From Atractiella rhizophila (Eukaryota): a stretch of 64,000 nucleotides of DNA. The notes under the pieces were generated by a model. It ran no database searches, was not told the origin of the DNA, and saw only the letters and a program-made list of their open reading frames with translations. The translations under genes were made by a program, and so were the position numbers. This document shows positions 10,943 through 58,900 of this stretch, piece by piece. The stretch lies in contig MU271250.1 of the NCBI GenBank assembly GCA_021432655.1, positions 1 to 64,000 of the forward strand, written 5' to 3'. Within the stretch, counting starts at the first letter, position 1, and every line of letters starts with the position of its first letter.

Positions 10943-10952
10943 AGAGTATTCT
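10943..10952 (-). promoter_or_regulatory. Non-tRNA primer-binding site (self-priming type)
   Basis: AGAATACTCT, 2 nt after the LTR, is the exact complement of AGAGTATTCT at 11069-11078, which lies about 27 nt downstream of TATATA. Confidence 0.7.
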
Positions 10953-10954
10953 TC

Positions 10955-11445
10955 TGTTAGGGCTGACAGTATGTGCGGTCGCCGATGGGCGATGCGTCTG
11001 TAGTGGAGGTAAACCTAAGTGAATAGTATGGCATGAGAAGACTAACCTGTAGTGGAGGTAAACCTAAGAGAATACTCTGAGATTACCACCACTACATCTC
11101 GATGTATATATACCATATGTAAAGGCACTGCCATAAACTGTAACATACATTTCTTGAAAAATGTAAGATAGCTAGATCAGGAAAGCAATAAAGGGAATAC
11201 TCGGAAATAAGACATACTCAGCAGTACAAGTGAGAAAGGATAATAAGGCAATAATGGCGACGGTGCAGACCGGCGAAATGTATGAGGTTAGCTGAGCGGC
11301 GATTCGTGTGAGATGGGGGAAGGCGGCGGTCAGCGCAAACATGCGCAAAGCGGCGACAGGTAGGCACGTGATCCTACGACGTACTAAAGTAGGTCATGTG
11401 ACATCAAATGGTGCATTTCGGTAATGCGTAGGGGCAAGCCTGACA
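10955..11445 (-). repeat. Gypsy 5' LTR (491 bp, TG...CA)
   Basis: Sense strand TGTCAGGC...CCCTAACA. Homologous copies start at 23781, 28785, 33898, 34468 and 49355. Confidence 0.95.
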
Positions 11446-23321: not shown

Positions 23322-24033
23322 TCATAATTCTGAGTGCCTCATCATCAAAGTCTGCCTGATTTGCCTACTCCTCAAACTTGATGATGTTGGACTCCAGGTT
23401 GCCCTTCTGTTGCAGGGAAGACAGTTTTGTTTGCGCAATAAGTTTGTGGTCAGTTTTGCAAAAACATGATCTGAACTCCGACAAAAATTGCTCCCACAAA
23501 ATCTCTTCCTCATTTCGACAAGTCGGCGCAGTATCCCAGCGGCGAATTTTTCAGTGTCTCCTTCTTTCATATACAATAGAGTAAATAAAATTTTTGACTT
23601 TTCTGAAGGGAACTGTCACGAGGTCTTGTTTGATTTTTTTGAACCGCTTTTCGGTTGTGTAGAGTTTGGAACATTCTTTCTAAGTGCAAGATGCATTCTT
23701 TGCTCGTCGGCAGTTCATGCATTTCCATATCTCCTCAAACCTCCGACATTTTTTTCTGAAAAGTAAAGGGAGTATTCTTCTGTTAGGGCTGACACTATGT
23801 GCGGTCGCCGATTGGCGATGCGTCTGTAGTGGAGGTAAACCTAAGTGAATAGTATGGCATGAGAAGACTAACCTGTAGTGGAGGTAAACCTAAGTGAATA
23901 GTATGGCATGAGAAGACTAACCTGTAGTGGAGGTAAACCTAAGAGAATACTCTGAGGTCACCACCACTACATCTCGATGTATATATACATATGTAAGGGC
24001 ACTGCCATAAACTGTAACATATGTTGCTTGAAA
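23322..24033 (-). mobile_element. Gypsy fragment: truncated LTR (23781-24033), PBS and internally deleted gag
   Basis: High similarity to 10150-11160. YMKEGDTEKFAAGILRRLVE. The LTR has three 22-nt repeats, at 23824, 23873 and 23922. Confidence 0.9.
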
Positions 24034-26641
24034 TAACTCGTAAAGGGGTTTGATCGAGTTGTCGAATCGAGGTTGGAAAGTGTGGTGGAATGGAGAGCAG
24101 CAACATTCGCCGCATAGTCAACAGGTAGGAAACATTCAGCAATTGAAGCAGGGGATTCAAGAAAACGAAGAAAATTTTGAGGAAGGTTGAAAGGAACAAA
24201 TTTTGATATGGTAAGAGGAAGGCAATTTCGAATCCAAGACAAATTAGAAGAAAATTTCGGCTGATCATATACGGATGGAGTAGAAATTGTTAAACTAGGC
24301 AGAAGAGAATTATTAGTAGAAGCAAGGAGTGCAGAGGGAGAAGTGGAGGGCAGGATCTTTCCCGGGGTTGTATCGTGTTCTTCCATAAAATTGAGGTATT
24401 CCTGGTCTGAAATTTCTTGCAATGCCCTGTCAAAAGACATGTCGCCATTCGGGGCATACTGTACATGGGTGTGAAAATGAGGATCATTTGAAGGCACTGG
24501 GTTGTCATGGGAGAATAGTGGAAGAAAGAGTGGGTGGATGTCAAGGTCTGGATGCTGAGCCGGGAGAGGAACAGGCCAGCGTCGTTGTTCATAAGCAACC
24601 TGGACGTAGGATGGCCAGTAGGACAGGTCACCATTGTGGATGATCTTTCCATCAAGGTTTCCATCGTACCGCCCATCAGGTCCAGGGCTAAAAATGTCGT
24701 TGGCCGCGCGGGGAATGCCGTCACTATTGAGTTCGTTTGGAGATGCAAAAGCCGGGCTGGCAATCAACACCGAAGGGTGGACATATTGAGATCGACCGGA
24801 GGAGTTAGGTTGAAGAGTAATACCCATCGCCTCGAAGGCAGCATCACCGGTTTTCTCTCGCTGTATAACTGGTACTCGGCAACTGGAAGATATGTGTCCT
24901 ATACCAAGGCAGTATACACATTGATTTGGCTGTACAATAAAATGACCCGACGGCGAGATAGATCCTGGCCAGGAGTCAATCCCGTCGTAGTCCCACGCCC
25001 GGCGGCCAAATACACGGGTCCCTGGATGACCGTAAACTCGCCTTGCGAGATGATACGTCTTCCCAAAGTGTCGCAAAGTAGGAGGCCGAACCGACCAAGG
25101 TCGGTTATACATCGGAGCGACTGGGGGGGTAGAAACGAGGATACGTGGTAGTGAAGTAGTTGCCAAGGAGGGTCGATAAGGAGGTGTAGATGGGTGCCTC
25201 AATGTGGGAGTCTGGCTTCGCAGTGTTGCAGATGACGCAGGTGGAAAATGACGAGCAGAGGATGGGGAAAAACGTATCGGCTGGGAGGAAGGTGGCATTG
25301 ACAAAGATCGAGACTGAGAAGGAAATACAGCATATACACTTGTGTCTCTCTAAAAATGCATGGGGATAGCAGGGTCTCCATGCTCTAGAACAGTGTTCGT
25401 TACATCTTCCGCTTTCAGTTTCTGAAAAAGATCGTTTAGATCATTCCTGGTGACATTCTTTGGATTGAGTGCAAACTTCCTCCATTCAGGTTCAAGGAGG
25501 TTAACGAAGAGGAGGAAGCGGACTGCATCGGACAGAGTGTAAGCAGAGTCTGCAGAGAGTAGTTCCGCATAAATCGCGTTCCATTTGGTGATGAACTGCG
25601 CCAAGGACGTGCATCCAGATCCACTTTGATAAAATGTGATCAATTTGGCTATAATCGTGTGACCCATAACGGCCTGCATTGTGCTGTATAGTGCCTGCAT
25701 CCTTGCGACGATGGAGCTAGCAACACGCTTTTCTTCTTCAGAAAGCTGATTCACAGCCGTGAGGTCCAAATTCGCAAGGACTATAGCCACAGCCTTGGCG
25801 TTCCCAGCTTCCCAACATTCCATAGCGTCCTCCCATTGTGACAAATTGCTGAAAGTGTTACGCAAAGGTTGAGTACGGCGAAAGTCCTCTGTCCCAACCA
25901 GCTCGTCCAATGCATAGCGGTAAACCATACGGACCTGGAGACCCATTCTCATCGCCGCCCACCAACTGGTAAAACCCACCCTTAGAATAGAAGGCACTCC
26001 ATCAATAATAAGTCCCGTCGTCCCAGCCGAAGATTCCATATCGATTGTCCGAAAAGAGTGTGGAGGTGATGAGGTGTTTGATGAAGGGATTAAAAACTCG
26101 GTCGTATTTGATAGGGCAGTGGTGCATGTAGGGGAGGATCTCTGTCATCAAATGGTGTGAGGTATCGAGAAGACATGTACAATCAGTACACTTCGTAGTG
26201 TTGTTACAAGAATTCGCAATGGGCAGCGTTAAACCCAATACTGGACAATCGAGGAGATACTTGTGGCTAACAGATGACTCTCACTACCATGTTAGCTGAT
26301 CCCCAGCGAATATGAGATGGTGGAAAACACTGGGAAATCAGGGCGGAGAAAAACCTAACCCTATGTACATACTGTGAGCTGCAGTACCATTTTGCTCCAA
26401 AATAGTTGAATTTAGCAGAGCTGCTAGAATTCGATTGAGGAAAAGGTAAAATTGAGTGGAATGCGTCGGTGAGGTTCCGAGGAGGATCCTGGAAGTGTCT
26501 GGTCGTTACCAAACCTGCAACGCCAGTAGCTAGCATGCTCGTCGCAAAAAAAGGTGACTGTACCCCATCATTGAAAAGAATTAGCAATATCCAGGTACAA
26601 CGGAAAAGTAACCACAAGGAACACGGACAGTAGTTTCCACA
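24034..26641 (-). mobile_element. Ty1/Copia fragment: 5' LTR (about 26290-26641), iMet-type PBS and gag region, truncated before the protease
   Basis: PBS TGGTAGTGAGAG at 26278-26289. Gag is similar to 57415-58704 (IDGVPSILRVGFTSWW vs IDNVPPISRVGFERWW). Knuckle CVYCLGIGHISSSC. The outer LTR boundary is uncertain. Confidence 0.8.
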
Positions 26642-26699
26642 AATCCACGAATTCCAGTAGTCACCAGTTCTCGAGGTCCGTCGCGACGTGCTTTCGTAT

Positions 26700-27511
26700 G
26701 GATGCCAGCCCTGACTGGTGGCGCATTGACACCAACATCAACATCGACGCCACCGTCTTGGTGGCTTCCTCTTCTTCCTATGCTTCGGTTTCTTTGATTT
26801 GGACTTACGTGGATTAGATCCTGCTTTCAGCTGAACGTTCAATCCACGATGCTTGGAACGGCGCTCAATTCAATTCAGTTCGCGCATGCCCCCCGACAAA
26901 ATGCATCGGATCGAATGAACGAATGGAGAGCGGGGGAAAGCAAGACCCACTTCTTCCATGCATAACCGGGACTGGGAGTAGGTCGCACCATCGAAGTTTA
27001 TAAAACTGTGATGATTTTTCCAGTGTTGACTACAACGCCATTTAGCTTAGCTTTCCACATCGACCTTGAAGAGCGGGAGAGAGAGATAGACCAGTGGTGC
27101 GGATCGTAGTAGATGCTGCGCCATTCCGGACCAATATATGAGCCATAAACTGTAACGTCATGCACGGGCCAGAGGTAGCGCAGCAGGGATAACGAAATCG
27201 TGGTGGTGGCGACCGTAGGTACCAACCTGATTAATGAGGAAATCCAGCATAGTAAGGAACATGGAAGTCGAACTTCTTCAACTGATCTGCATGTATGACA
27301 GCTGGCATCGTCGGTTTCTGATTCGAGGTGTAGCCAAGTCGGGCCTTCGGAATGGAACCCAACTTGTGGTTCTCTGCAGTATCAAATTCAGTGGCTTCGC
27401 TTCGACAGGAGATCCTTGCTCTTTCGGAGGCGGAAGAAGTTGGCAGAGCCGCCCCAACTGAAGAAGAAGCGAAGAGGGAGAGGAGGAGGAGGAGCTAAAT
27501 AGTTCCAGCAT
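26700..27511 (-). pseudogene. Possible decayed secreted-protein gene
   Basis: A signal-peptide-like LLLLLSLFASSSVGAALP is out of frame with the ATG at 27511. Confidence 0.25.
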
Positions 27512-28107
27512 GGTGATATTAGCAAGTCAACCACTTCGAAAGGCTCGGTTCGATGTGTAAATGGTCGTGATTTCGTCGATCTGCTCGGCAGATAAAGGAG
27601 GAATTGAGGTCACAAGAAATAGAACAGGCAAGCGCAAGAGTTGTTAGACATCAAGGTCCTCAGTTTATCATCTATGGCAGGGAACAGGCATTGAGATGCA
27701 CTAAAAGACCAATAAGCCTTGAAGGAGGACATGAAGGAGCTCCTACTCTGTCAAAGAGAAGGGGGAAATCGAGAGATCTTTTTGATTGTTGCACCAGGCA
27801 GGCTGGGAAAAAGAGAAAAGACTTTGAGAGGAACGTGAGTTTTATATCCCATTGGCACGCCCCTTTCTGTGATCACAACAAATTCTAGCTTCGACTCAGG
27901 TCGATTCTAGGTTGGGAATGTATGAATTGGATCTGAGACATTTATGAGAACACGAAAACTCCACAAGAGAAAGCTGAGAGGAGCTCTGATATAAAGAATG
28001 GCAGTCTTGTTGATCCTCCTATAATATTTAGGAGGTTTTATCCGAAACTCAAGGACATGGCAGTCGACTCAACATGATGTAAAACAGGATGTAAACCTGA
28101 TGGACTG

Positions 28108-28560
28108 ATGCATACAAATATCGACACCCAAGAGTTGTGGCTTCCATACCTTGAGAGTGGCTGGTCCATCAAGTGTAAATTCTTTCCAATTATCGTCCAC
28201 GCCGTCCCCACCTCATTCGACATCAATTCTAAGGAAGAGGTTCGAAGACGTATCGAACCTTTCAACCTCAACCTATACAAACACATCACCAAAATAAGCT
28301 GGTGCTGCACCAAGAAGATGACTACCACTCCCTCAAAAAGGTTCAAAACCCACTCCTCCCTCATCATTGCCCTCGACCACAACTCGGTAGCTGACGCACT
28401 CATCGAATTCGGTCTCATCATTGACGGGAAAGCCACTGTGGAAAAGTCCATCCGAGATGTCCTAAGACAAGTGTGTCAGTGCCCTCGTTGCTCGGACATC
28501 CCCCTGCCAAGGACTTCGCCCATTGGACCCCAGCCTCCAGCAGCCACTGCGTGGAGCTCT
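28108..28560 (+). mobile_element. LINE (Tad1-like) ORF1 fragment
   Basis: IIVHAVPT...KTHSSLIIAL...ADALIEFGLIIDG...VEK followed by decayed Cys knuckles. Confidence 0.65.
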
Positions 28561-29116
28561 TGCCTCCGGCAGCCAAGCACAGACCCATCATACATACTCT
28601 ACTGTGTTCAAAAAACAATGAAAGCTGAGTGGTCTCCAAGGTACGAGGAGAACCACTTCAGCTTTTGACTATATATACTGTTAGGAACATGCTGAGAGAT
28701 AATCAGTGATTGAGTACTCATAACACTTCCTTGTAAACTACATTATCTGTTTGCTTTCTTCTCCTTGCTTTGTTTTGACCAATATGTCAGGCTTGCCCTA
28801 CACATTACCGAAATACACCATCCGAAGTCACGTGATCCACTTTACCACGTCATGGCATCACGTGCCTCCCAATCGCTGCTTTGCTGCCTGCGCTGTTCGC
28901 CGCTTTCCCCTTTCTCACACGAATCGCCGCTCAGCAAACCTTATACATTTCTCCGGTCTGCGCCGTCTCCATTTTCGCCTTATTGTCCTTTCTCACTGGT
29001 ACTACCCAGTATATCCTATTTCCGAGTATTCCCTTTATTGCTTTCCGGATCTAGCTATCTTATGTGTTTCAAGAAACATATGTTACAGTTTATGGCAGTG
29101 CCTTTACATATGTATA

Positions 29117-29399
29117 TCCTATACTCTAAGGTTCATCAGTTCTTGACATGAGTCATAAGACACACTTTTGAGCCCTCACACCTCCCTCACCATACACAAT
29201 AGAATGAAATGTATTGTATCATCATATCCCACATGCTTGCCCCTTTCTGAACCTGCAAGGAAATTTTATTCTGAAAGGGTTGAAAAATGTGTTTTGTACT
29301 GGACTCGAACCCTTACAACGGTCACAGTAGGGTTCAAGGGGCCATGCCCCTTGCGAGTGGGTTGGGGGGCCTGAGGGACAAAGGCTGTTCACACACTTG
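29117..29399 (+). mobile_element. Non-autonomous mini-Helitron (283 bp)
   Basis: Inserted between A and T of the LTR TATA with no TSD, and removing it restores CATATGTATATATACATC. It has 5' TC, 3' CTTG (a CTRR variant) and GC-rich hairpins near the 3' end. Confidence 0.7.
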
Positions 29400-29486
29400 T
29401 ATACATCAAGATGTAGTGGTGGTGACCTCAGAGTATTCTCTTAGGTTTACCTCCACTACAGGTTAGTCTTCTCATGCCATACTATT

Positions 29487-29775
29487 TGTGAGAGAGGGAC
29501 ATACCACATGACTCCGTTTTACTTTGTCATTTTCCTTCCCTTCGCTCGTTTCTCTCGCTTTGTTCATGTTCATTCCCTTCGCTCGTTCCTCTCGTTTCGT
29601 TTCCCTCTCTCTTTCTTGATCTCCACTCTTCGGCACGTGTACATAGGGTTAGGACCATCGCCAACCTGATTCCCCAGCGTTTCCACCATCTCATTTCGCT
29701 GGGGATCAGGTACGTAGCTTCATTTCATGTCATTGAGCGTTTCCACCATCTCATTTCGCTGGGGATCAGCTCACA
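29487..29775 (+). mobile_element. Copia-type solo LTR (289 bp)
   Basis: TGTGAG...CTCACA ends and TSD CTATT. The 3' part matches the LTR of the Copia fragment at 26290. Confidence 0.88.
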
Positions 29776-30879
29776 CTATTCACTTAGGTTTACCTCCACT
29801 ACAGACGCATTGCCCATCGGCGACCGCACATAGTGTTTGCCCTAACACAATACTTGTAAATTGTTCGCATTTGAAACCCGTGAAAGACCAATATAAAGCT
29901 GCCCATGAGAGAAAGGAGAAGACTCTAAGTACAAACTTACATGTCCAACAGATTGTCCTTGTACTTTATTCAGAGTTAAGGCAAATGCTAAGGGCACAGG
30001 GAAGTGAAAGCACCAGAATTGAAAAGGAAGCTGGTTTGATACTGCACTGTCAATGCTGATTCGAGGAATGAGAACCGATTCGCTGTGCGCACCTGTAACG
30101 ATGGTTGCTTCAATGACTCGCCAGAGAAGCTGAGTGACAATGAACCATGTGCCATTGCACTGGCCAGCAGATGGATTGAGATTTCGCAGAAGAATGATGG
30201 GTACACTGGTCTTGAGGTGTAAGCAATACGAAGAGAATCCAGAGATCTCCGGGGTATTCAGGTACTCGACAGAGAAGCGATTTCTAAGATCTTCCTCGTC
30301 ATCTATAATTTGATCTGCACTATAATATACCGGATCTCCTGTGGATTCAGGCCACTGAATCAAGTGATCATTGATGCCATCCATATCCACATTCTTTGCT
30401 GCTGGAATCATGCGAACCTGGAAGTATTCTTGAAGGAAGCTCAGAGCAGGGATATTTTGCAGAGAATCTAGTTGGCCGTAAATTGAGCACAACAGACCAT
30501 CTAGTCCTTCGTGGGATGGAATAATAGACCCATCTGGTATCTTTAAGGTTCCACATCCATTGTCTGATGGATTATTAGCGAGACCATTTCCAACATTAAG
30601 GAGCCACTGGGCAAATCTGGTTACATGCTGAAATTTGGCTGGTGTCAATTCCTGTTGGCCTTGAAGAAGGCACATATTGGTTTTCAAAGGCAGGACTTGA
30701 ACATTCGGCCAGAAGTTAGAATTAATGGGCATCTTCAATCTGTGGTCAGGTTCCATTTGGAACTACCGGAAGACATTGTCTGCCATCTCCTGTGAACAGT
30801 ATGTTAATAAAGAACTACTTAAAGGGAAGTATCGTACCACAGAAAACCATGGGTGCTCCTCCAAATGGTCTTGAATCCT

Positions 30880-31800
30880 TTTTAAGAGGAGGTGTGGTTA
30901 GTGCAATTTCACTCAAAATGTCCCTAGTCGATAGGTTATCGACACAGGTGTAGAGGGGGTATGGTCAGTGCAATTTAGCTCCAAATGTCCTAATCTATAG
31001 CTCATCACCAAAGGTAGCTAATGAGGATGTGGAGACAAAGTTCATATATACATGCAATTTCCATATGAATGATATATCACCCCCACAGAGATACTGTAGC
31101 TCCATATGCTTGACCTGATAAAATGTTCCTGCAAACCACCCTCATCATTGCATGTTTTACATTCTTGCTCACACTCATGTTACATTTACTGGTAGATGTA
31201 AAAATCACTAAGGGTTTAGAATATAGCGTAACATGCGCCTGTCTTCATGTAAAATGTTTCAGCAATGATATTATTTATTGGCACTAAAATCATTATTGAT
31301 CATCTGTTTATCATCATCTTTGACCATAATGATTCAAAACAAGCTCTTTAATAGGTCACATCTGTTAAATCATTCTTAACACATTTCATTTTAATGGTAT
31401 TACTATTTTATATGGATTCATCATCTTGATCATTGGTCATACATTCAAGTTTGTGTGTACATCAAAATGATTCTACACAATTCAGCCCCTTGCTTGCTTA
31501 AGAATACATCTGATGCATGCACTACTTTCAGCAGGGTATCAATCTATCCATGTCCGTAGCCAATCTTAAGCGGCTGCATGGCTGAGTTTCATTTTGGTTC
31601 TCAGTCCCATCTTCACCAGGTGTCAATAACCTATCGACATGGGCCACTCTCAACAAAATTGCACCCCTCATACCCGCTCTCCCTGGTGTTGATAACTTAT
31701 CAACATGGGCCAGTTTCAACAAAATTGCTCTCCTCAAACCCCTCTATGACTGTTGTCAATAACCTATCGATCTGGCGCAGTTTTGGCAAAATTGCACTTA
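30880..31800. repeat. Fold-back arrangement of degenerate ~60-bp repeats around an AT-rich core
   Basis: GTCGATAGGTTATCGACAC and GTGCAATTT at about 30900-30980 are inverted relative to GTGTCAATAACCTATCGAC and AAATTGCAC units at about 31620-31800. Confidence 0.55.
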
Positions 31801-32019
31801 TTGTTAATAACGTATAGAGAACACATTGTCTAAACTGTTATAAATTAATTTTGCAACTTTTTTAATTGGAGATATATGCTAAATATGAACCAGAGCTGTC
31901 CAATGAAGCCAGGATTTCAATGGATAAGTGATTTAAGATGTGTCTTAGAGAGGACATTGCCTGGGCCTGCAAGTGTTTATATGTACATGACATTTTGACT
32001 GGATTGCTGTTCATATCTG

Positions 32020-32225
32020 TGGCAGGGTTCTATCCTGGTTGACTAAGAGCCAACAGTTTCGTGATGATGCTGTTTTTGGAGGCAGGGTCGTGCCCTGGGT
32101 GCCTAAGAGGCAAGGATGTAGCCAAGATCTTGTTCCTGACAGAGGTAGGGTTGTATCCTGGGCAGCCTGGAGGCAGGATTCAGCCTGGATCTCATTCCTC
32201 AAAGAGGCAGGGTTGAACCCTAAAG
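32020..32225. repeat. Degenerate tandem repeat (GGCAGGGTT...CCTGG units)
   Basis: Four or more diverged copies are visible. Confidence 0.5.
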
Positions 32226-32419
32226 TACTGTTAGTAGCAGCCAGCCAGCGACCCGAAGTGCCCGCTTCGCGAATGGTAGCGAACTTGGCGCCCTCGTGAT
32301 GAACCTCGCATGTTTGAGCAAGTTCGTGTCGGGGCTAATCCCACCTCGCAAACCAATTTGGCCGTCGTGTCCGAGCTGACGGGACTCAATGGTGTGTTCT
32401 GTCCCATCTGGTTAGTTCC

Positions 32420-33545
32420 GTCAGTGAGAGCCTCACGACTGGGCTGACCTCACCCTGGCCCTGACCCTAACTCCATTCCCCAGCCAAATTTGACTGATGA
32501 AACAGTTCTGTCATGAAGGAATAGTAGTAGAAAGGCCACACAAAGCCAGAGCAGTTTATATACCTTCTCCCCCTGCCATATGGGGCCAGGCCATCACTTA
32601 TGCTGCTTAGTAGAAGCTCCTCACAGTCATTCAGCTAAGTTTTCAGCCATAAATCAATGTAGTGGAGCAGTGTGGACACCCCACAAGGCAGGAGCTCCAC
32701 CTGTTAGCCTGGCAATCAATTAAAATCATCACATCATCCACTTAAGACCAGGACAGCCGCTGATGAAATGATGCAAAAAAATAGTCATCCCACAGCATTT
32801 TGCCATCGAAAAGCAACGGAAAAGATGCCTCAGGACTCTCCATGACTGCCCTGATTCATCCAGAGCATCCCTATTTAGCACAAAGAGCATATGATGTGTT
32901 GCCGCCTTATCTTGAGGAACAGGGAAATGCAGGAGAGACACCCCATAGAGGGGGTGCCAGGACCCCTTGAGCGACCAAAAAGGCGCCACAAATACCACAT
33001 TCCACCCTATTTCCTTCCACATAAGGACTCAACATTGCAATGAATAGCAAAAAACACAAGAAAGAACCTCAGCCTATGCTGAAGCGCAGATAATAACTTT
33101 GCATGATGCAATGGGCAATCCCCATCGATTCCATCACTTATAAACCACTTAGAGCGCCTCCCAAAGAGCCCTTACCATCACCGGAACTGAAGAAGCCTTA
33201 GGGAAACAGGATCTAGCCAGTCTTGTCTTCTGGTGGAACCCCTCATCTCACACCCCACTATCGCTCCTCGCCTCTTGCTGCTAGCTATTTACTGTTGGAA
33301 GTGTCTGAGATAAACATATCAAGAAGGGAGAAGCTACGCTGTGAGTGTGTCGTCTTTGGTTCGCTTTGGAGTCCCACTTTGTTGGACTCTGATGATTCTG
33401 TCCTCTCCTGTTGATGTTGGTCCCACCTTCATCCCTAACCCAGTCAGAGCCTCATGACTAGGCTAACAGGATCCTGGCCCTGACCCTAACTCCATTCCCC
33501 AGTCAAATTTGACTGACGGAACAGTTCCATCGCAAAGGAATAGGA
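32420..33545. repeat. Diverged ~105-bp direct repeat (about 32420-32523 and 33441-33543)
   Basis: Both copies share CCTGGCCCTGACCCTAACTCCATTCCCCAGYCAAATTTGACTGA. Confidence 0.65.
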
Positions 33546-33897
33546 TGTCCCCCGCAAAGCGGGACTACAAAAGCCTCTACTTTGATCCAAGGCCTTTCAG
33601 AGGTTTGTGTTTTCGGGTAAGGTTCACATCTGGGAGGGCGAGGCCATGCATGGGTCTCATGTTGGCCTCGCTGGATTCTGGTATACGTTTAAGGGTTTAG
33701 CCGCCTAAGGGGCCACAAAGTGCAGACCCAAAGTGTTCCCTATCAGTTCACACGAAGCGAAATTTGGGATGGGGCGAGATTAACATGTTATAGCTAGTTC
33801 CTGTACAAAAGTGATTATTTTGCAAAAAGGGTGAATTTTGCATGTTGCAGACGCATAATAGTTATTTCGCGACAAGGGTGCACTTTGCAGGTCACAG

Positions 33898-34343
33898 TGT
33901 TAGGGCTGACACTATGTGCGGTCGCCGACGGACGATGCATCTGTAGTGGAGATAAACCTAAGAGCATGATATGACATGAAGACTAACCTGTAGTGGACAT
34001 AAACCTAAACTCTGAGGTCACCTCCACTACTCTCTGATCTATATATACAAGCGGAATAACACTGCCACAGAGCATAGAGGAGAGCAGATGAAACATGTAA
34101 GAGAACTAAAAGGGGAAGTGACAGTGGGATTACGTGGAGTTAATAAGAGGAGGATAGGCACAATTGGGCTAAGTGGTGATGTAGGTGCAAATGGGCGATG
34201 GGAGATGCAGAGTGGTGACGGTTCGCAGATTTGTATAGAATGCAAATGGGCGAACAGGCACCGATTCATGGGGAACGCAAATGGGCGATAGAAGATGCAA
34301 TCCGGCGAACGGGCGCTGATTTGCATAAGATGCAAACCTGACA
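33898..34343 (-). mobile_element. Gypsy solo LTR, divergent subfamily (shared R/U5, different U3)
   Basis: TG...CA ends and TSD CACAG. U3 contains TGCAAATGGGCGA repeats. Confidence 0.9.
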
Positions 34344-34467
34344 CACAGTCAGCTGCTCACCCGAAGTGGTAATTTCGCACCTGGAGGGCATTTCGCAAGT
34401 TGTGGCCTGTTGCTGATCCAAACTGTTTATTTTGTGACGGGACGTGCACTTCGCAAGTTGGAGCCTA

Positions 34468-34956
34468 TGTTAGGGCTGACACTATGTGCGGTCGCCAATA
34501 GGCGATGCGTCTGTAGTGGAGGTAAACCTAAGTGAATAGTATGGCATGAGGAGACTAACCTGTAGTGGAGGTAAACCTAAGAGAATACTCTGAGGTCACC
34601 ACCACTACATCTCGATGTATATATACATATGTAAGGGCACTGCCATAAACTGTAACATACGTTTCTTGAAACATGTAAGATAGCTAGATCAGGAAAGCAA
34701 CAAAGGAAATACTCGGAATTAAGGCATACTGAGCAGTACAAGTGAGAAAGGACAATAAAGCAATAATAGAGACGGTGCAGACCGGCGAAATGTGTAAGGT
34801 TTGCTGAGCGGCGATTCATGTGAGATAGGGAAAGCGGCGATCAGCGCGAACGTGAGCAAAGCGGCGATGGGGAGGCACGTGATCCTTCGACGTGATGAAA
34901 TAGGTCACGTGACTTCAAATGGTGCGTTTCGATAATGCGTAGGGGCAAGCCTGACA
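34468..34956 (-). mobile_element. Gypsy solo LTR (489 bp)
   Basis: TG...CA ends and TSD GCCTA. Collinear with 10955-11445. Confidence 0.95.
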
Positions 34957-35799
34957 GCCTATCACAGATCTGAAGTGGTCATTTCACAACTGGAGGTGCA
35001 TTTCGCAGGTTGCAGCCAGCAAGCCACCCAAAGTGGCCCTTTCGTGACTGGAGGTCAGTTGCTGCCCACCCCTAGTGCCAACAGTAACCATTATTTTGCA
35101 ACTAGAGGCACACTTTGCAGGTTGTGACCGGTTGCTGATCCGAAATGGTTATTTTGTGACCGGGGGTGCACTTTGCAGGTCAAAGCCAGCCGCTCAGCCA
35201 AAATGGTATTTCGTGACTGGAGGGCACTTTGGAAATGGTCATTTGGGGTTTTGTTGTCTCCGACCTTTTATCCAATTGCGTTGATATGTGACCAACATAC
35301 CAGACAGGTATCAGGGCAGATGCGTGGAGTATGAAAGAGATGGAGGAAGAAAAGGTAAGAACAATACGTATGGGGGAAAATGTTACCTGAGTATGGGGGA
35401 AAATGTTGCCTGACATCAGATTAGGCTTCTTGATTCGTTTATTGCTTTATAGGTGATGATAGATTGGCCACTTCTTCCGGATACGCTTCTCTTTCTTCTC
35501 GTCTGAGAGGACTGCCAGGTTGGCAAAGATAGGTTATATCGTCACTTGGATCTGGGGTATTTCTCATATTTGTCTGCTTGCCCCACGCTTGGCCGGCAAA
35601 CACGTCAGCGTAGTGGTACCATGGCTTCCGTGTCCAGCAGAACCAAATTGGTTGATTAATGTCATTCATTGCATTCTCCGAAAGTTCGTTCGTGCATTTG
35701 CTATGAGCTACTAGAATTGTAACAATGGAAAAGAGCTGTGGAGTGTGCATACAGCTCCCACCTGCTCAAGAAAGGCATCAAGGACAAAATCATTAATGT

Positions 35800-39618: not shown

Positions 39619-42600
39619 ATGAGCAAAATCCCCAATCCGGCAGCCTCCGGAGGACACGATGTCGTCCGCTCCGCCCTCGATGCCTGTAGTACGGCACTTC
39701 GATATGCCACGTCAATCTCATGTGTTGCCCCTGTTCCCGGACTCTCTGCCGGTCTCGGCGCTCTACAGACGCTGGTTACTCAACTTCAGGTAGAGTCTTC
39801 TGTTCCTGCTTCGATGATAATTTAGCGAGTTTGTTCACCGCGACATCTTGTTTCGCAGACAATGAAGGACAATAACGAAAGACGGGACGTCTTTGTCCGT
39901 CATATCGCGCAACTGGTACAACTGATATCAAACTCAATTCAAGAGATCGAGAGAGACTCGAAACTGCAATTTTCCCCGAGTCTTTCGAAAGCTATGGACG
40001 AACTTACACAGTGAGTGCTATCGTGGGTTCAAAACCTTGATTTATACTTATGTGTCTTAACCCATTAGGGACGTTAACGCAATGATCGCGGACGTAGAAA
40101 AGATGAAACGTCAAGGAGCAGCCAAGCGGTTTTGCAAATCAAGTCAGAACGCCGCAAAATTGACTGAGCTGACGGGGAGAATTAACCATGCAATGAGTAG
40201 ATTTAGCGTAAGCAAAAGCTCTCGCCCAGCTTTATATAAAACACATCTCATTAACTCTGAATATCTAGGTTCGGGGAAGTATCACTGTGGAAGCACATGT
40301 GCTCGCTATAGCAGAGAGACAGATTACTCAGCGTAAGGATGATTTGACGCACAATACGAGAAATCCCTGACTGATCAAATTCTTATTACAGTTGAGAAAG
40401 AGAACGAATGGCGCCAACAGGAGGCTGTTCGGCGAAAACAAAAGGAAGAAGAAAAGCATCGAAAGCATGAAGAAGAAATCTTACAGAAACTACCTCAGGA
40501 GGAAGTTGGGTACCGGTCGGCCCTCAATATTGTCACCCACGGGGTTCATCCAGCTACCCGAATAGAAGTACTGCAAAAGGTATCTGGCTGGGCCGATTCC
40601 ATCGACGCCATCGAAAAGATGTACATCCTCACCGGTGCCTTTGGTACTGGCAAATCCGCCATCGCCTACACCGTCGCCGAAACCCTCGAAAATCAAAACA
40701 AACTAGGAGGTTCTTACTTCTTCTGCAGGGACAATGTTGGGTCCTTGAATATCCAGAACTTCGTTGGACCGATCGCCCGCCAGCTTGCCAACTCGATCCC
40801 AGCCGTACGCCACCACATCGTTGAAGCCATAGAAGAACGCAAAAGCGCTGGTCCATTCACCCTTGCTGAAGACTTCAGGCATCTCATTATCGAACCCCTT
40901 TCCAAAGTTTCCGGGTATCAAACTCCGGTAATTATTGTTGTGGATGCGCTCGACGAATGCCCCGAACGTGAAGGGGTAAAGGAACTCTTCCAACTCATTT
41001 CTGCTTCGCTACCTAAACTGAACTTTCCTCTCAAGTTCTTCCTCACCGGACGTCCAGAGTCCCACCGTGACTTTACGGAGCTAAGCTCTTGTATCCTTCA
41101 CGAGCTGAAGAAGGAAGTTGTGGATATGGACATTCGGACTGTCTTAGTCGATGGTCTTGAAAAGGTCGCCATCGAGAACAAGTGTGCCGGGATGGAGCAC
41201 CCTCCTACGACGATCAATAACCTCGTCAATAAAGCTCAAGGTCTTTTCATTTTCATCGATACTTTGATCAGGCATCTGTTGGAAGATGACCCTATTCCAT
41301 GGGAGACAAAGCTCCAAGAAATATTGGAGTTGCCAAGTGAAGATGGTTCACAAATAGATCTTCTCGATGGTCTGTACCACAAAGTTCTCTCCGCCGTGCT
41401 AGATTGCTCAAAGTCCCAGAAGATCCAAGACAGGAATCGCAACATCATTCTTCAAGTTCTTGGCTTCGTCATCATGCTTTACGAACCCCTCTCCCCGACA
41501 TCGCTGGCCCATCTCATCTCATACGACACACCCAAGACGATGCAAACGGCCAAGAACGTGAGGCTTGTCCTTCATCGTCTTAGCTCCGTCATTCTCGTCC
41601 CCAAGGAGAACCACGACCTCATTCGTACTCTTCATGCATCCTTCGTCAATTACATTACCGATCCTACGCGGTGTTCCGACTCCAAGTTATTTGTCGACCC
41701 AGCGCTTTATCATATTCGAATTGCATCTTCGTGCTTGGACTTCCTTCACGATAACCTAAAGCGCAATATCTTAAACCTTCCTGATCCCTGCATCCTCAAC
41801 TCTGAAATTCCCAACCTCCCCGACCTCATCCACCAACTTATCCCTCCTCACCTTCAATACGCCTGTACACATGGCCTATCGCATCTCGCGAATATCACCA
41901 ATCCTTCCCCCGAACTGCTCAAAAAGGTTTCCAAGTTTGCCGAAGAACACGTTATACACTTTTTGGAAGTCATGAGCCTACTGAAAAGGGTTGGCATCGC
42001 TGTCCGGGTTCTTGGGACTGTACTCAAGTGGTACCAGGTGAGAGCTGTGCCAAACGAACCGCACACTTCGTCGATACTGATCATCCATTTTTGCACCACA
42101 GAACCTTGTCACGGAGGGAGACTCTCGAGTTACCTCGCTCCTATCTGACAGCTGCCGCTTTGTGGGTCGTTTCTCCGAGGTGATCAGTGCCTCCGCAGGT
42201 CATATCTACCTCTCAGCTTTAACCCTATCCCCGGAGTGTACCCTTCGTACGACCTACTTGACTCCTCCTTGGGGTTCAGTCAAAGTAGTTCGTGGACGGG
42301 AGGAGTCATGGGACGCTTGCTGGAACAACGTTGTTAAAGGAGCTCCATGCACCGCATTAACCTATTCACCCGACTCCATCAAGATCGCCGCAGGCTCCGA
42401 CGATCAGACAGTCAGGATATGGGATGCAGCCACCGGTAAGCAGCTTCATGTTCTCCGTGGCCATTCCGGATGGGTCCGCGCCGTTGCGTTCTCTGCAGAC
42501 GGACAGCAGGTTGCCTCTGGCGCTTCCGATTCTGCAATCCGTATATGGGATACAGAGAAGGGCCAGTGTCTAAACGTCCTTCGGGGACATACGGGCTGGG

Positions 42601-49354: not shown

Positions 49355-50942
49355 TGTCAGGCTTGCCCCTACGTATTACCGAAATGCACCATCTGAAGTC
49401 ACATGACCCACTCTACCACAGCATGGCATCACGTGCCTACCTGTCACCGCTTTGCTCATACCCACGCTGTCCGCCGCTTTCCCCTTTCTCATACGAATCG
49501 CCGCTCAACAAACCTTATACATTTCGCTGGTCTGCACCATCCCCATTTTCGCCTTATCATCCTTTCTCACTAGTACTGCTCAGTATATCTTATTTCCGAG
49601 TATTCCCTTTATTGCTTTCCTGTTCTAGTTATCTTACATGTTCAAGAAACATACATTACAGTTTATGGCAGTGCCTTTACATATGTATATATACATCAAG
49701 ATGTAGTGATGGTGACCTTAGAGTATTCTCTTAGGTTTACCTCCACTACAGACGCATCGCCCATCAGCGACTGCACATAGTGACAGCCCTAACAGAAGAA
49801 TTCTCTTTCTCCTTTTCAAAATCAAACTTAAAAATGTTGGAGGTTTGGGGAGATATGGAAATGCGCGAACTGCCAACAAGTGAAGAACGCATCCATCACT
49901 TGGAAAAGATGTTCAAGACCTCATAACAAGTTTCAACCAACAAAATATGCCAACCTCCCAGAATGCGAACGAGATTGCGCAACTGAGGTCCGACGTTCAA
50001 AACATAAACGACCGAATTTTACATTTACTGGACTCCAGACTACCCCCTCCTAGGGACAGTGGAACCACTTCCCCCTTTATATCACGAACAGACCCAATAC
50101 CTCAAACTTACTCTCCCCATCTATACCTCAAACTGCCCAAGCAGCACCATATGCAGGTATCACACTTGCTCCACCTTCAATCTTCAAAGGAGTGCCTAAC
50201 ACAGCTCTGACATTTTTATGGGAAATTTACGTCTACACCTCTACTGTTCTAGGCCAATTCCCGACCAAAAAATCAAAAATCCTATTTACCCTCTCTTACA
50301 TGAAAGAAGGCAATGCGGAAAATTTCCCCGCTGGGATTTTGCGCCGGCTTGTCAAAAACAAGGAACAAATTTCGTGGGAACAATTGTTGTCGGAGTTCAA
50401 TCACACTTCTGCAAAACAGACCACAAACTTATTGCACAGACGAAACTGTCTTCCCTCCAGCAAAAGGGAATCCTAGAATCCTACATCATCAAGTTTGAAG
50501 AATTGGCAAACCAGACTGACTTTGATGATGAGGCTCTTATTTTCTTCTAGAAACGAGGACTCAATCCTGCCCTACATCTTAAAGTAACCCAAGGAGAGTT
50601 CCCGAAATCGCTAGAAGAATGGAAAGAAAAACCTCAGCAAATTGATGCGGAAGAATCTGCACATTCAACCTTCTTTCAAAACATCCCACTGGTGAAAGAC
50701 GGGCCCCAAAATACGTTTTCCGCAAAGAGAGACAGCTCGAAATTGACAAAACACAGAGAGAGCAGAACACCCATATTGTATCGACCAAGTGCCGCTTTGC
50801 CGCCAATGGCCAATCCGTCACCAAACGTTGCTACACACTCACAGAGCCAAAGACCCTGATGACATGGAAGGTGATGCAACAAAATCTAGACCCCCCCATT
50901 GCAGGCCATGCCAAAAGATGGGACACCGGGAAAGAGATTGTC
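49355..50942 (+). mobile_element. Gypsy fragment: LTR (49355-49794), decayed PBS and frameshifted gag
   Basis: Same family as 9622-11445. This LTR has only one 22-nt repeat (49730-49751). Confidence 0.92.
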
Positions 50943-52296: not shown

Positions 52297-55200
52297 TGTG
52301 CGCTGGACCTGGTCCACAGCGGATGGTGGTCAAATCGCTGTGGAACCAGAACATAACCTAACCCCTAAGTGTAGAATGGAGGGGACCGAGTGAACCAGAG
52401 AGCTCATGCTCTCACACCCCCCCTCACTCGGTGCCCAAAGAAACCAGCACCAGAAAACCCCAAAAGTAAAGTAGAATGATGGTGAAGTATTAATGAGAAG
52501 CAGACACCCTGTATTGAAAGTAAACGAAAGACCAATTCAACTGGATAGCAAAGAAGTGTCAATACGGGAAGGTAACGAACTAGAATGGTAATGAAATTTA
52601 ACAAATCTGACAGCACAAATGAACGTGACTATCTATGTATGATGTATATCAATCCATTCAGGAATCCAGTAATCCTAAGTGAGAGCATAATTTCCAGTGT
52701 TGCAAGTGCGATATGCCCTTCGTCATCACATGCCCTATCATCTCCTGTTTTGGTATCCACGTCAGTACCACCTCACCTTTATTGACTCTTTCGCAGGTAA
52801 AATGATAGTGAACGTCAACATGTTTCGTCCTGCTGTGGTTAGAAGGGTGTTTGGCCAAAGTGAGGGCTCCTTGGTTGTTGCCTTTGATCGTCGTAGGTGC
52901 ATTCTGAGGGAAACCTAGCTCAGTCAGCAACGCCCGTAACAAAATAGCCTCTCTGGCTGCCGATGATAGTGCTATGTATTCTGCTTCCGTATATGAGATC
53001 GCTACGGTCGGTTGCATCTTGGATATCCAAGAAATCGCAGATCTCCCCAGTCTGAACACAATCCCTGAGATTGATCTCCTGGAATCAACATCAGACGCAT
53101 GGTCGGAATCAGAGAAGCCTTCTATTGAAGTGGAGCCTGTACTGTCCCAAATCAGTCTAAAATGCAAAGTTGCAGCAAGATATCTGAAGATCCTCTGCAC
53201 ATATGCCCAATGTCAACGACCAGGATTTGAGTTGAATCGAGCTGCATGATTGACCGCGAACAGTATGTCTGGTCTGGTGTTTACTGCCACATATATCAGT
53301 GCCCCAACTGCCTCTCTGTACGGCTTCTTCTGCATGTACTCACGTTCTTCATCTGAATCAGGCGCCCAATCTTTCAATACCTTCTCATCTACATCGCAGG
53401 GAGTCTTGACGTGACTGCAATCAGTCATACGAAAACGCTCAAGACACTTCTTGATGTAACTCTCCTGATCTAAAGCTACAATGCTGTTAGTCTCGTCCCA
53501 AACTATCCTCATCCCCAAGAAGTTACCAACGGAAGACGTGGTGATCCTGAACTTTGGCCGAAGTAAATCGAACAATATGCCAATCAAGTTGCGGGACGAA
53601 GCAGCAACCAATCCGTCATCTACATGAAGGCAGATGATCGTCACCTCTTCCCCCGCCTTCTTGATATACACCCCATGATCCGCGTCGGTCCTGACATAGC
53701 CGTGTCGCATAAGGAAGGTGTGAAGCGTGTCGTTCCAACCCTTTCCTGCCTGTCGTAGTCTGTAAAGTGTTTTTCGCAACCTGAACACTTTCGAAGGCGA
53801 ATCGGGTCCGCAAACATTTGAGGCTGCTGTAAGTACACTTCCTCCTTCAAATCCCCATGGAGGAATGCATTGCTGACATCAAATTGTGCGAACGCCCATC
53901 ATTGCGATGCGGCGAGGGAAAGAACAGTACGAACCGAGGACATATGGACAGTAGGAGCATATGTCTCCTTGAAATCTTGCCTTGCCACCTGTCTGTCGCC
54001 TCTCGCAACGAGCCTCGCTTTATATTTGACGATATTGCCATCTAAGTCCCTTTTTATCAGTAAAACCCACTTACATCCTATTGAGCACTTTCCATGCGGC
54101 AACTCAACCAAATCGTCTTCCCAAGTCCCCACGGCGCAAAGAGGAGCCATCTCCGCTTGAATCACAGTCCACCACTCATCTGCATGAGGCCCACCTAACG
54201 CCTGTTTAAACGTAGGCTCATCTAAATTACTGTTCCACCCTACTCCTGTCGCGAATACTTCCCATTTCCTTACACCAATCCTATTATCTGTGAGCGCTGA
54301 TTGGTTCGAGGCCCTCAAAGCTGCATTCATCTCCCTTGCAGCAACTGATGGATTGAAATCTCGTAAGCCTGGCTGGAAGTGTGCGTTGAGATGGAAAGCC
54401 AATGGGCGTCTCAAAGTAGACAGAGGTTGCAGCGTATGTGGTTGTGGGTGTTGAAGACCGGATCTATCCCCTAGAGTGTTGTCAGGTTGTGGAAGACCAC
54501 TGTTCAAAGCCCGATAATCGATCCTAGGGATATCCCGCCTGGTGCGCAAGGGTAATGGGTAAGGATTAGGAGAGTGGTTCGGAACCCTCTTACGAGGGAT
54601 GCGAGTCCGTGGGAGGGGTGGTTGCTCGTCACTAGCTTTTGGTGTTTCTCGGCCATCGCCATCGTCATGTCCGCTTGTCTGCCCTGCAGGCGATAAGTCT
54701 ATCGGTGGATAGAGCGGTCTAACTGATGGATCAGATGTAGGTTGCATCCTCACCATTTCTATGGGAGGTGGTATTATCGCATTCGTATCTGGTATTCGGA
54801 CAGGAACATTGTCAGCAAGGTAATCAAAATCCGAGGGCATGAACTCGTTAAGCGACCAGCTGGTCAATTTTACCGTTTCCTCCTCCTGCCTGTCCTTGTA
54901 AAATTGATCTTCAAACCACTTTACCTCCTTCGATTCCACAAAGCGCCTCTGTTGCGGGACCCAGAATAACCACCCCTTCTTCCCTTCCAAGTACCCAACG
55001 AAGTACCCCAAGATCCCTCTTGCATGAAGCTTCGAGATCTGTTTTTCTTTGGGGACATGTATAACTGCAAGACATCCAAAAGTACGGAGGTGCGATACAT
55101 CCGGCGTTTTCCCAGTCCATGATGATTCCAGACATTTCCACGACCCATGCGAGAACATCGGAAGACGATTAAGTGTGTAGACTGCAAACTGCACTGCTTT

Positions 55201-58200: not shown

Positions 58201-58900
58201 CTTCTGACGGATAAATCCATCCTCCGGTCTTTGATCAAGGCAATATCGATAAACTTTGAGACTCTTGAGCCCCGGGACGATCGCTTTCCACCAGCGTTCG
58301 AATCCAACTCTCGAAATTGGAGGTACATTGTCAATGACATGGTTTCCACCACCGCCATACATAGGCATTCCCGGTCCCTCCATTGGGGTATAAGAAGAAG
58401 AAGAAGATGCGGACGTAGTCAAAGGTTCAGTCGCTGTAGAAATGGCTGGAGAAGGAAAACATGTCAGTGATGGTTCGTCAGGTACGTTGAGATTTAGCTG
58501 ATTGTTGATATGAGGAGGTTGATCATGGCCGTCCAATGGAGTGGGGTACCGTTGTGACATCGGAAGAGAGGATGAAAAAAAATGATTATCAGGATGGATC
58601 CGGATTCCTATCCGGCTCTCGCCATCATGTGCGCTGGACCTGGTCCACAGCGGATGGTGGTCAAATCGCTGTATACAATGCAATGAACTCCCTACCTGGT
58701 CCACAGCGGATGGTGGTCAAATCACTGTGGAACCAGAACATGACCCTAACCCTAAGTGTAGTCCATTGTACATCTGTTAGGCTTATCACTGATAAAATGT
58801 ATATTTATTAATTTTATAGTACCTAAAAGCTTTAGGAGTTTCCAGCATATAGTGGAAGAATGGAGGGGACCGAGTGAACCAGAGAGCTCATGCTCTCACA
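52297..58900 (-). mobile_element. Full-length but decayed Ty1/Copia element (LTRs 58628-58900 and 52297-52416)
   Basis: Gag, PR VDSAATVSM, WHARLGH...CTSC, IN VRSDNGGEF, RT LHVDD and RH FSDSDHA. PBS TGATGGCGAGAG, PPT at 52417-52427, TSD TAGGC/AAGGC (4 of 5 match). Several frameshifts. Confidence 0.95.
58762..58856. mobile_element. 95-bp MITE-like insertion in the Copia 5' LTR
   Basis: Absent from the 3' LTR. Imperfect TIRs TCCATTGTA/TATAGTGGA, with the flanking AG duplicated. Confidence 0.5.

What the first reader, a model, noticed from the sequence alone, without database searches (positions are those of the whole stretch)
26290..26370. Covarying hairpin over the splice donor in three Copia LTR subfamilies
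Sense-strand stems: ACCTGATtCCCCAGCG/CGCTGGGGATCAGGT (29487 LTR, covering CAG|GT), CTGATttCCCAGTG/CGCTGGGGATCAG (here) and TCTGGTtCCACAGCG/CGCTGTGGACCAGG (52297 and 58628). There are two compensatory pairs, a shared bulge and a conserved loop motif CCACCATC. The outer arm lies upstream of the repeat start, as in the Gypsy LTR.
Basis: seen in the sequence. Interest (0 to 1): 0.75.

Follow-up and report, generated by a model that had tools for sequence, protein, structure and literature searches.

The report
Self-rebuilding intron in fungal retrotransposon ends
Many jumping-gene families in this fungus carry, in their end-repeats, a small intron-like segment between two identical short repeats with a hairpin over its start, a layout that could let the element splice its RNA yet rebuild the intron each time it is copied, though no RNA data were available to prove it.

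Summary
The hairpins are real, but the copy at 26290-26375 has no splice donor: it is an intronless remnant of a Copia 5' LTR. Its stem matches the 29487 family's except for two C>T changes; the two compensatory pairs separate those families from the 52297/58628 family. The hairpin belongs to a larger LTR module: U3 arm - R1 (ends YAG) | GT..spacer..R2 (copy of R1, ends YAG) | short tail. It occurs in 28 sequence clusters, in 6 of 7 sampled Copia RT clades and in a Gypsy family. The repeat ends at the AG in 74 of 87 copies (all within 2 nt; opposite strand 0 of 87). In Gypsy, R2 starts right behind a Tf1-type self-primer, and the base before R2 is hypervariable. Best reading (0.7): the 5' RNA end is spliced, the U3 arm blocks the donor at the 3' end, and strong-stop DNA jumps to R2, rebuilding the intron. 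No RNA run was listed; splicing is inferred. The scan noted this module twice before in this genome; ten paper searches found no description. Closest known: the foamy-virus donor switch.

The parts
26290..26375 (-). 3' 86 nt of a Copia family-B 5' LTR, intronless (single-repeat) form; upstream U3 replaced by another repeat from 26375 on
   Evidence: body 96% identical to the C85 element, whose RT matches PF07727
26354..26363 (-). TAGGGTTAGG, at the position a TATA box holds in other families (32 nt before the repeat start)
   Evidence: promoter role inferred
26328..26342 (-). 5' arm of the hairpin; 26342-26332 predicted U3, 26331 predicted RNA start
26316..26323 (-). loop motif CCACCATC (role unknown)
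26296..26308 (-). 3' arm, ending CAG; followed by the tail CTAACA, no GT donor
26278..26289 (-). primer-binding site TGGTAGTGAGAG (relatives read TGGTAGCGAGAG)
   Evidence: tRNA-Met type by likeness to the GalEa PBS quoted in PMC5445492
29487..29775 (+). solo Copia family-A LTR, intron-bearing form, TSD CTATT, inserted in the spacer of a Gypsy LTR
29664..29679 (+). 5' arm; ACCTG pairs with CAG|GT
   Evidence: z -6.05 for 29660-29720
29676..29709 (+). R1 (34 nt), predicted first exon
29710..29769 (+). candidate 60-nt intron GTACGT..CAG; 29736-29769 is R2, identical to R1
52297..52416 (-). 3' LTR of the family-C Copia element, intronless form
58628..58900 (-). 5' LTR of the same element: arm 58737-58723, R1 58728-58696, candidate 56-nt intron 58695-58640 (R2 58672-58640), tail, PBS 58627-58616
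10955..11445 (-). Gypsy (chromodomain) 5' LTR with the same module: candidate 49-nt intron 11046-10998
11069..11078 (-). predicted Tf1-type self-primer AGAGTATTCT, 32 nt after TATATA; R1 starts at the next base
10943..10952 (-). Gypsy primer-binding site, complementary to the self-primer, 2 nt after the LTR end
34468..34956 (-). Gypsy solo LTR, intron-bearing form
49355..49797 (+). Gypsy LTR, intronless form
23781..24033 (-). Gypsy LTR piece with three repeat copies (two intron units)

Best explanation
The LTR carries a short spliceosomal intron that is rebuilt at each round of reverse transcription. Shown in DNA: arm - R1 | GT..spacer..R2(AG) | tail, with R2 a copy of R1. Inferred: transcription starts at R1, inside the hairpin's 5' arm. 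At the 5' LTR the RNA lacks the outer arm, so the donor is open and the intron is spliced out, taking a possible 3'-end signal in the spacer with it. At the 3' LTR the RNA contains the U3 arm, which pairs with R1 and the CAG|G, so the intron stays and R1 is tied up. Minus-strand strong-stop DNA (copy of R1+tail) therefore anneals to R2 and extends through spacer, R1 and U3. Both new LTRs again hold the intron, and R2 is rewritten from R1. A jump to R1, or later deletion between the repeats, gives intronless LTRs such as 26290. The likely benefit is an intron for mRNA accumulation in an intron-dependent host and/or choice of the poly(A) site.
For: Repeat edge equals the splice edge: 74 of 87 copies exactly, 87 of 87 within 2 nt; 0 of 87 on the opposite strand; unselected YAG in 28 of 28 and GTA in 24 of 28 clusters; lengths 47-88 nt. 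R1 vs own R2 median identity 1.00, nearest other cluster 0.74. Variants shared by both repeats of one copy: Gypsy +10 C>T in 16 of 16 R1 carriers, in two lineages; single-copy changes in L003 and L006; three changes in L087/L088. Jump scar at R2, not R1: Gypsy base before R2 T25 A19 C5 G4 against T50 G1 C2 before R1 (53 copies), 19 changes on the tree against 22.1 shuffled, second most variable of 421 columns. Gypsy R2 starts right after a 10-nt self-primer complementary to the PBS, where the template 5' end lies by the Tf1 rule (PMC7175516). TATA-like or TAGGGTTAGG motif 26-43 nt before the repeat start in most clusters where one was found. Donor opening cost median 7.8 kcal/mol with U3, 2.8 without, 3.9 with shuffled U3. 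Intron-bearing Gypsy LTRs outnumber intronless 209 to 28. Module in 6 of 7 Copia RT clades sampled. Sense introns are otherwise lost on retrotransposition (PMC2923131).
Against: Splicing, start site and poly(A) site are not observed. In 6 of 27 clusters (9, 18, 19, 21, 23, 25) U3 does not make the donor harder to open, and in clusters 12-15 the donor is costly to open even without U3 (3.9-7.1). Branch-like motifs were found in R2 in only 12 of 27 clusters. Family C shows 0 shared against 14 one-sided variants. No general excess of G before R2 across clusters (A9 G7 T6 C1 of 23), so cap copying is not a general signal. The two LTRs of one element differ in repeat number in 15 of 28 pairs (hand count), so repeat number also changes by other routes and intronless LTRs prove nothing. 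The repeat scan selects similar repeats, and clusters are related, so counts are not independent. One Copia clade (8 of 40 loci) lacks the module.
Confidence: 0.7

Rival explanations
1. Foamy-virus-like switch without splicing: the GT is only a U1 landing site that suppresses poly(A) at the 5' LTR, the U3 arm hides it at the 3' LTR, and the repeats are kept alike by expansion and contraction.
For: Same geometry as foamy virus (PMC3694450). TGYA in 15 of 27 spacers (3.0 expected from U3 windows) and ATGHAH in 6 of 27 (1.1 expected) suggest a 3'-end signal (motif from PMC3990503). Triple and quadruple copies exist. R2's final YAG could be a by-product of copying R1.
Against: Does not explain why the repeat stops at the donor to the base, which is what an exon junction copied by RT gives.
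Confidence: 0.17
2. The hairpin serves only to steer first-strand transfer or priming; RNA starts at R2 or is unspliced, and the splice-like signals are relics of a past splicing event.
For: The hairpin ties up R1 regardless of splicing; in the long-repeat lineage the stem ends short of the donor.
Against: Donor hexamers stay canonical across clusters with unrelated repeats; the arm keeps the bases that pair with CAG|G; R2 would drift from R1, but it does not.
Confidence: 0.09
3. Chance tandem duplications plus assembly artefacts.
For: Short-read-type assembly of 1998 contigs; unequal LTR pairs and an N gap in one LTR.
Against: Strand-specific, base-exact boundaries in 28 clusters of unrelated sequence; spacers are unique sequence that an assembler cannot invent.
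Confidence: 0.04

Closest known systems
Foamy virus LTR major splice donor switch (Schrom et al. 2013, PMC3694450; abstract and results section 11 read)
   Same: A donor in R is open in 5'-LTR RNA and closed in 3'-LTR RNA because U3 bases change the fold.
   Different: There U1 binding controls poly(A) independently of splicing (section heading), with no mini-intron or duplicated exon described in what I read; here a long perfect stem, a 47-88 nt GT-AG segment and a repeat ending at the junction.
Tf1/sushi self-priming chromoviruses (PMC7175516, PMC4600332; passages read)
   Same: The Gypsy family has a chromodomain and a PBS complementary to a 10-nt LTR stretch.
   Different: 10 rather than 11 nt; followed by the intron module, which those passages do not mention.
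Penelope-like elements that retain introns (PMC8557442; passages read)
   Same: Retroelements with a 5' intron in or next to the terminal repeat that survives retrotransposition.
   Different: Different element class; retention mechanism stated there as unknown; no hairpin or exon duplication.
Cap-copy and transfer errors at the U3-R junction of HIV-1 (PMC12172438; passages read)
   Same: The base just before the template's 5' end mutates often during minus-strand transfer.
   Different: Here the variable base lies before R2, inside the candidate intron, not at the U3-R1 junction.

Membership tests
Ty1/copia LTR retrotransposon | RVT_2 RT with integrase upstream, TG..CA LTRs, PBS | tested here: met
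   Family C in the window: gag_pre-integrase, rve, RVT_2 in order; A, B, C, D group in one RT/RNase H clade; the 26290 body itself gave no Pfam hit but is 96% identical to the C85 element.
Tf1/sushi-type self-priming Gypsy | PBS complementary to the first bases of the transcript | tested here: met
   10-nt match in 3 and 9-nt in 2 5' LTRs, 31-34 nt after TATA; sequence level only
Tf1/sushi-type self-priming Gypsy | RNA start at the primer and RNase H cleavage behind it | not testable with these tools
   no RNA run listed
U2-type spliceosomal intron | GT donor consensus, YAG acceptor, fungal length | tested here: met
   28 of 28 clusters YAG, 24 of 28 GTA, 47-88 nt
U2-type spliceosomal intron | branch point | tested here: inconclusive
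   YTRAY/CTCAY (pattern recalled) in R2 in 12 of 27, in the spacer in 1 of 27
U2-type spliceosomal intron | excised from RNA | not testable with these tools
   no RNA run listed
Foamy-virus-type donor/poly(A) switch | U3-dependent masking of a donor in R | tested here: met
   computed folds only: 21 of 27 clusters costlier with U3 than without, 22 of 27 costlier than shuffled U3
Foamy-virus-type donor/poly(A) switch | U1-dependent suppression of a poly(A) site downstream of the donor | not testable with these tools
   only motif enrichment in the spacer
Curated structured RNA family (Rfam) | match above gathering score | tested here: not met
   3 weak matches, all far below gathering score, in 26000-30000

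The most novel reading that the evidence does not exclude
Copia and Gypsy retrotransposons of this fungus, and probably of other intron-dependent fungi, share or have converged on a split-R LTR in which one hairpin gates splicing by LTR position, keeps the 3'-end signal only where needed, and steers strong-stop DNA to a duplicated exon, so that a spliced intron is inherited through reverse transcription: a natural self-regenerating intron.
Probability: 0.6. Interest if true: 0.88.

Novelty: new variant of a known kind. Interest (0 to 1): 0.76.

Why it matters
Retrotransposons are expected to lose any intron they splice. Basidiomycete genes often need introns for their mRNA to accumulate (PMC3744415), so intronless retroelements face a problem there. 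This module would be a compact solution, used by both LTR superfamilies in one genome, and it gives base-exact predictions for RNA start, splice junction and strand-transfer point that one RNA data set can test. It would also mean that short internal repeats in fungal LTRs are functional, not noise.

Tried and rejected
RNA evidence: no RNA holder listed. Two DNA contig sets of one sample, possibly the assembly's source, were laid on 23600-35100; the cut tables did not settle single versus double forms. Intronless LTRs as proof of splicing: rejected, because deletion between R1 and R2 gives the same sequence and LTR pairs often disagree. Jump scars at R1 of intronless copies: 0 of 10 (A), 0 of 4 (C), 0 of 5 (D) after setting aside one damaged double each in A and C; uninformative if scars arise in a few per cent of cycles. 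Cap-G as a general signal: not supported across clusters; G stands before R2 in 10 of 10 A/B copies, 5 of 9 C and 5 of 8 D. CACCA as PBS partner: not universal, since clusters with the GGTTATG-type PBS also have it; as branch site: distance to the acceptor varies 10-24 nt. Rfam: nothing. Metagenome scan: 5 loci, no intron-bearing LTR. Other Gypsy families: of 10 stretches, 4 gave a long repeat pair; no duplicated-exon module of their own was found, though L210 shows an unduplicated GTATGC..TTTTAG stretch; too thin to conclude. Host below 'fungus': Atlas hits split between Basidiomycota and Ascomycota; basidiomycete is my inference. R-scape was not available. Look-alikes in other genomes of the scan: none.

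Full report
Setting. The window comes from a fungus: it encodes a Zn2Cys6 domain and a NACHT-WD40 protein, between Gypsy, Copia and helitron-type pieces. The genome has 51.5 Mb in 1998 contigs. Several loci occur twice with the same flanks (for example L014/L016 and L018/L019), so two haplotypes are probably present and some counts include both. Basidiomycete is my inference; the Atlas taxa were mixed.

The observation. The three stems and the loop motif are in the sequence. The stretch 26290-26375 is the 3' end of a Copia family-B 5' LTR on the minus strand, followed by the PBS; its upstream U3 is replaced by another repeat, and its body is 96% identical to an element on contig C85. It has no donor: the 3' arm runs CAG|CTAACA. 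The donor exists in the solo LTR 29487-29775 (CAG|GTACGT) and in the 5' LTR 58628-58900 (CAG|GTAGGG). The GT at 52297 is tail sequence. Families A and B are sisters, as are C and D. The two compensatory pairs separate A/B from C; A versus B shows none; D has no bulge. Single hairpins other than the A one do not beat shuffles.

The larger module. Intron-bearing LTRs read: arm - R1 ending YAG | GT..spacer..R2 ending YAG | short tail, with R2 a copy of R1. LTRs such as 26290, 52297 and 49355 lack exactly the GT..AG part. I scanned the window and 219 loci for direct repeats of at least 20 nt with period 40-110, with no splice assumption. The loci had been chosen for LTR likeness or RT/RNase H matches, so this is not a genome-wide rate. 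Of 146 distinct pairs, 88 end as AG|GT..AG in one orientation; they form 29 clusters, one of which (L214, not an LTR) I set aside. Several of the 33 other clusters are visibly decayed copies of the module, the rest unrelated arrays. In the 87 remaining copies the repeat ends at the AG exactly in 74, and 1-2 nt later in 13; the same repeats read on the other strand give 0 of 87. Features I did not select for are YAG in 28 of 28 clusters, GTA in 24 of 28, and lengths of 47-88 nt. Among 40 Copia RT loci (of 150 listed), 26 show the module, in 6 of 7 deep clades; deep branching is unresolved, in three loci the module may belong to a neighbouring element, and one clade of 8 loci has none. Genome-wide, exact patterns give 209 intron-bearing and 28 intronless Gypsy LTRs.

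The hairpin. Taking the best-folding copy per cluster, the arm pairs with the exon's last G in 23 of 27 clusters and with the donor's +1 G in 22 of 27, while the rest of the stem uses all pair types (cluster 6, whose arm is displaced by an insertion, and cluster 28 left out). This is conservation of architecture across unalignable sequences, not alignment-based covariation. Opening the nine-base donor costs a median 7.8 kcal/mol in RNA with U3, 2.8 in RNA starting at R1, and 3.9 with shuffled U3; with-U3 exceeds without in 21 of 27 and exceeds shuffled in 22 of 27. The six exceptions belong to one long-repeat lineage whose stem stops short of the donor. Clusters are related, so the printed P values overstate the case.

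Where the RNA starts. A TATA-like or TAGGGTTAGG motif lies 31-34 nt before the repeat start in clusters 0, 4, 12-15 and 26, 37-43 nt in the long-repeat lineage, and 26 nt in family C; 11 of 28 clusters showed no such motif. The Gypsy family gives a second handle: the sequence 2 nt after its 5' LTR is complementary to a 10-nt LTR stretch 32 nt after TATATA (3 copies with 10 nt, 2 with 9 nt; two chance hits at non-PBS flanks ignored). In Tf1 such a stretch is the RNA's 5' end and is cut off as primer (PMC7175516, passage; PMC4600332, passages). The template would then begin at the next base, which is where the part of R2 that matches R1 without variation begins.

Signs that R2 is rewritten by strand transfer. 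In 53 Gypsy copies the base before R2 is T25 A19 C5 G4, the base before R1 T50 G1 C2. On a tree of 51 copies built from other parts of the LTR, that base needs 19 changes (shuffled 22.1), and it is the second most variable of 421 columns in 34 period-49 copies. Frequent change just before the template's 5' end is documented for HIV-1 (PMC12172438, passages). A C>T change at +10 is in R1 of 16 copies and R2 of 17, shared in 16, and appears in the period-47 lineage and separately in L094. L003 and L006 each carry a private change in both repeats; L087/L088 carry three (one event). Family C shows none shared against 14 one-sided changes. Within copies R1 and R2 are identical at the median; the nearest other cluster is 74% identical (the scan favours similar repeats).

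Mechanism. Shown: the layout, the boundaries, the computed folds, the self-primer match, the variable base and the shared variants. Inferred: RNA start at R1; splicing at the 5' LTR; donor masking and intron retention at the 3' LTR; transfer of strong-stop DNA to R2 because R1 is paired; regeneration of the intron in both LTRs. Splicing followed by reverse transcription is the simplest reason for a repeat that stops at the donor to the base. A sense intron in an LTR element is otherwise lost (PMC2923131, passages). Possible benefits: intron-dependent mRNA accumulation, shown for Cryptococcus and cited for Schizophyllum (PMC3744415, passages), and removal of a 3'-end signal from the 5' LTR: TGYA is in 15 of 27 spacers (3.0 expected from U3 windows) and ATGHAH in 6 of 27 (1.1 expected) (motif from PMC3990503, passages).

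Against. No RNA run was available, so every RNA step is untested. By hand count LTR pairs split into 10 double/double, 7 single/double, 5 double/single, 3 single/single and 3 with three or four copies at the 5' LTR; some unequal pairs are 99-100% identical elsewhere. One round of ordinary reverse transcription should give equal LTRs (own knowledge), so DNA slippage, intermolecular plus-strand transfer or assembly error also act. Three pairs of intronless Gypsy LTRs do flank an RNase H match in one orientation (C29, C51, C387), which fits loss during copying. Branch-like motifs were found in only 12 of 27 R2s. G before R2 is not general.

Beyond this genome. One metagenome scan gave 5 loci; four hold a Copia 3' LTR of a lineage not matched in G000. 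They show TATA, an arm beginning TACCTG, and a partner ending CCAG with no GT after it: the intronless form, with arm bases that would cover a CAG|GT. It is a lead only; no intron-bearing copy was seen.

Known systems and novelty. The donor switch works like that of foamy virus (PMC3694450; abstract, outline and section 11 read). Intron retention is known for Penelope-like elements, mechanism unknown (PMC8557442, passages). I found no description of a duplicated-exon intron in an LTR in ten searches (listings and abstract starts seen), five of them aimed at this question (20, 24, 44, 76, 81), nor in term look-ups in PMC3601003, PMC10886601, PMC2864245 and PMC5445492. The library lacks most subscription papers, including older surveys of fungal LTRs, and I read no supplements. 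Two earlier notes of this scan reached the same model on other pieces of this genome; I had written mine down before, and they are not independent support. New here: the breadth, the self-primer coincidence, the variable base, the opening energies and the correction about 26290.

Verdict. A real and widespread LTR module; the named copy is its intronless remnant. Self-regenerating intron 0.7; interest 0.76; new variant of a known kind.

Noticed in passing
window 58762-58857: 96-bp insert in the U3 of the family-C 5' LTR, absent from the 3' LTR, with decayed TCCA..TGGA ends and a 2-bp AG duplication; looks like a small non-autonomous DNA transposon.
   Followed up: no
window 34468-34956: Contigs of both DNA runs join 34461 to 34956, skipping the Gypsy solo LTR: an empty-site allele, so the insertion seems to be on one haplotype only.
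   Followed up: partly
window 29400-29850: The family-A solo LTR is inserted inside the spacer of a Gypsy LTR module; L064 shows a similar insertion of a family-C LTR into another family's hairpin.
   Followed up: no
module clusters: CACCA in the loop occurs in 12 of 27 clusters, 4-15 nt from the repeat start, nearly all lacking a TATA box (several have TAGGGTTAGG instead); possibly a downstream promoter element.
   Followed up: partly
L170-L176, L186: One Copia clade with a GGTTATGAGCCC primer site has no module; how it is expressed without an LTR intron is open.
   Followed up: partly
L189, L198, L205 (5' LTRs), L194, window 23781-24033: LTRs with three or four repeat units; expected from a jump of unspliced strong-stop DNA onto R2, but assembly error is possible.
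   Followed up: partly
L220-L223: Metagenome Copia 3' LTRs with TATA, an arm starting TACCTG and a partner ending CCAG but no donor: possible intronless relic of the same module in another organism.
   Followed up: partly
window 40343-44306: NACHT plus about 12 WD40 repeats split over two frames (fungal NLR/HET-like gene).
   Followed up: no
window 29842-30762: PIF1 helicase fragment, likely helitron-derived.
   Followed up: no
L210 (Gypsy LTR, both ends): A GTATGC..TTTTAG stretch preceded by TTTTTAG but without a long duplicated exon; may be a minimal form of the module.
   Followed up: no
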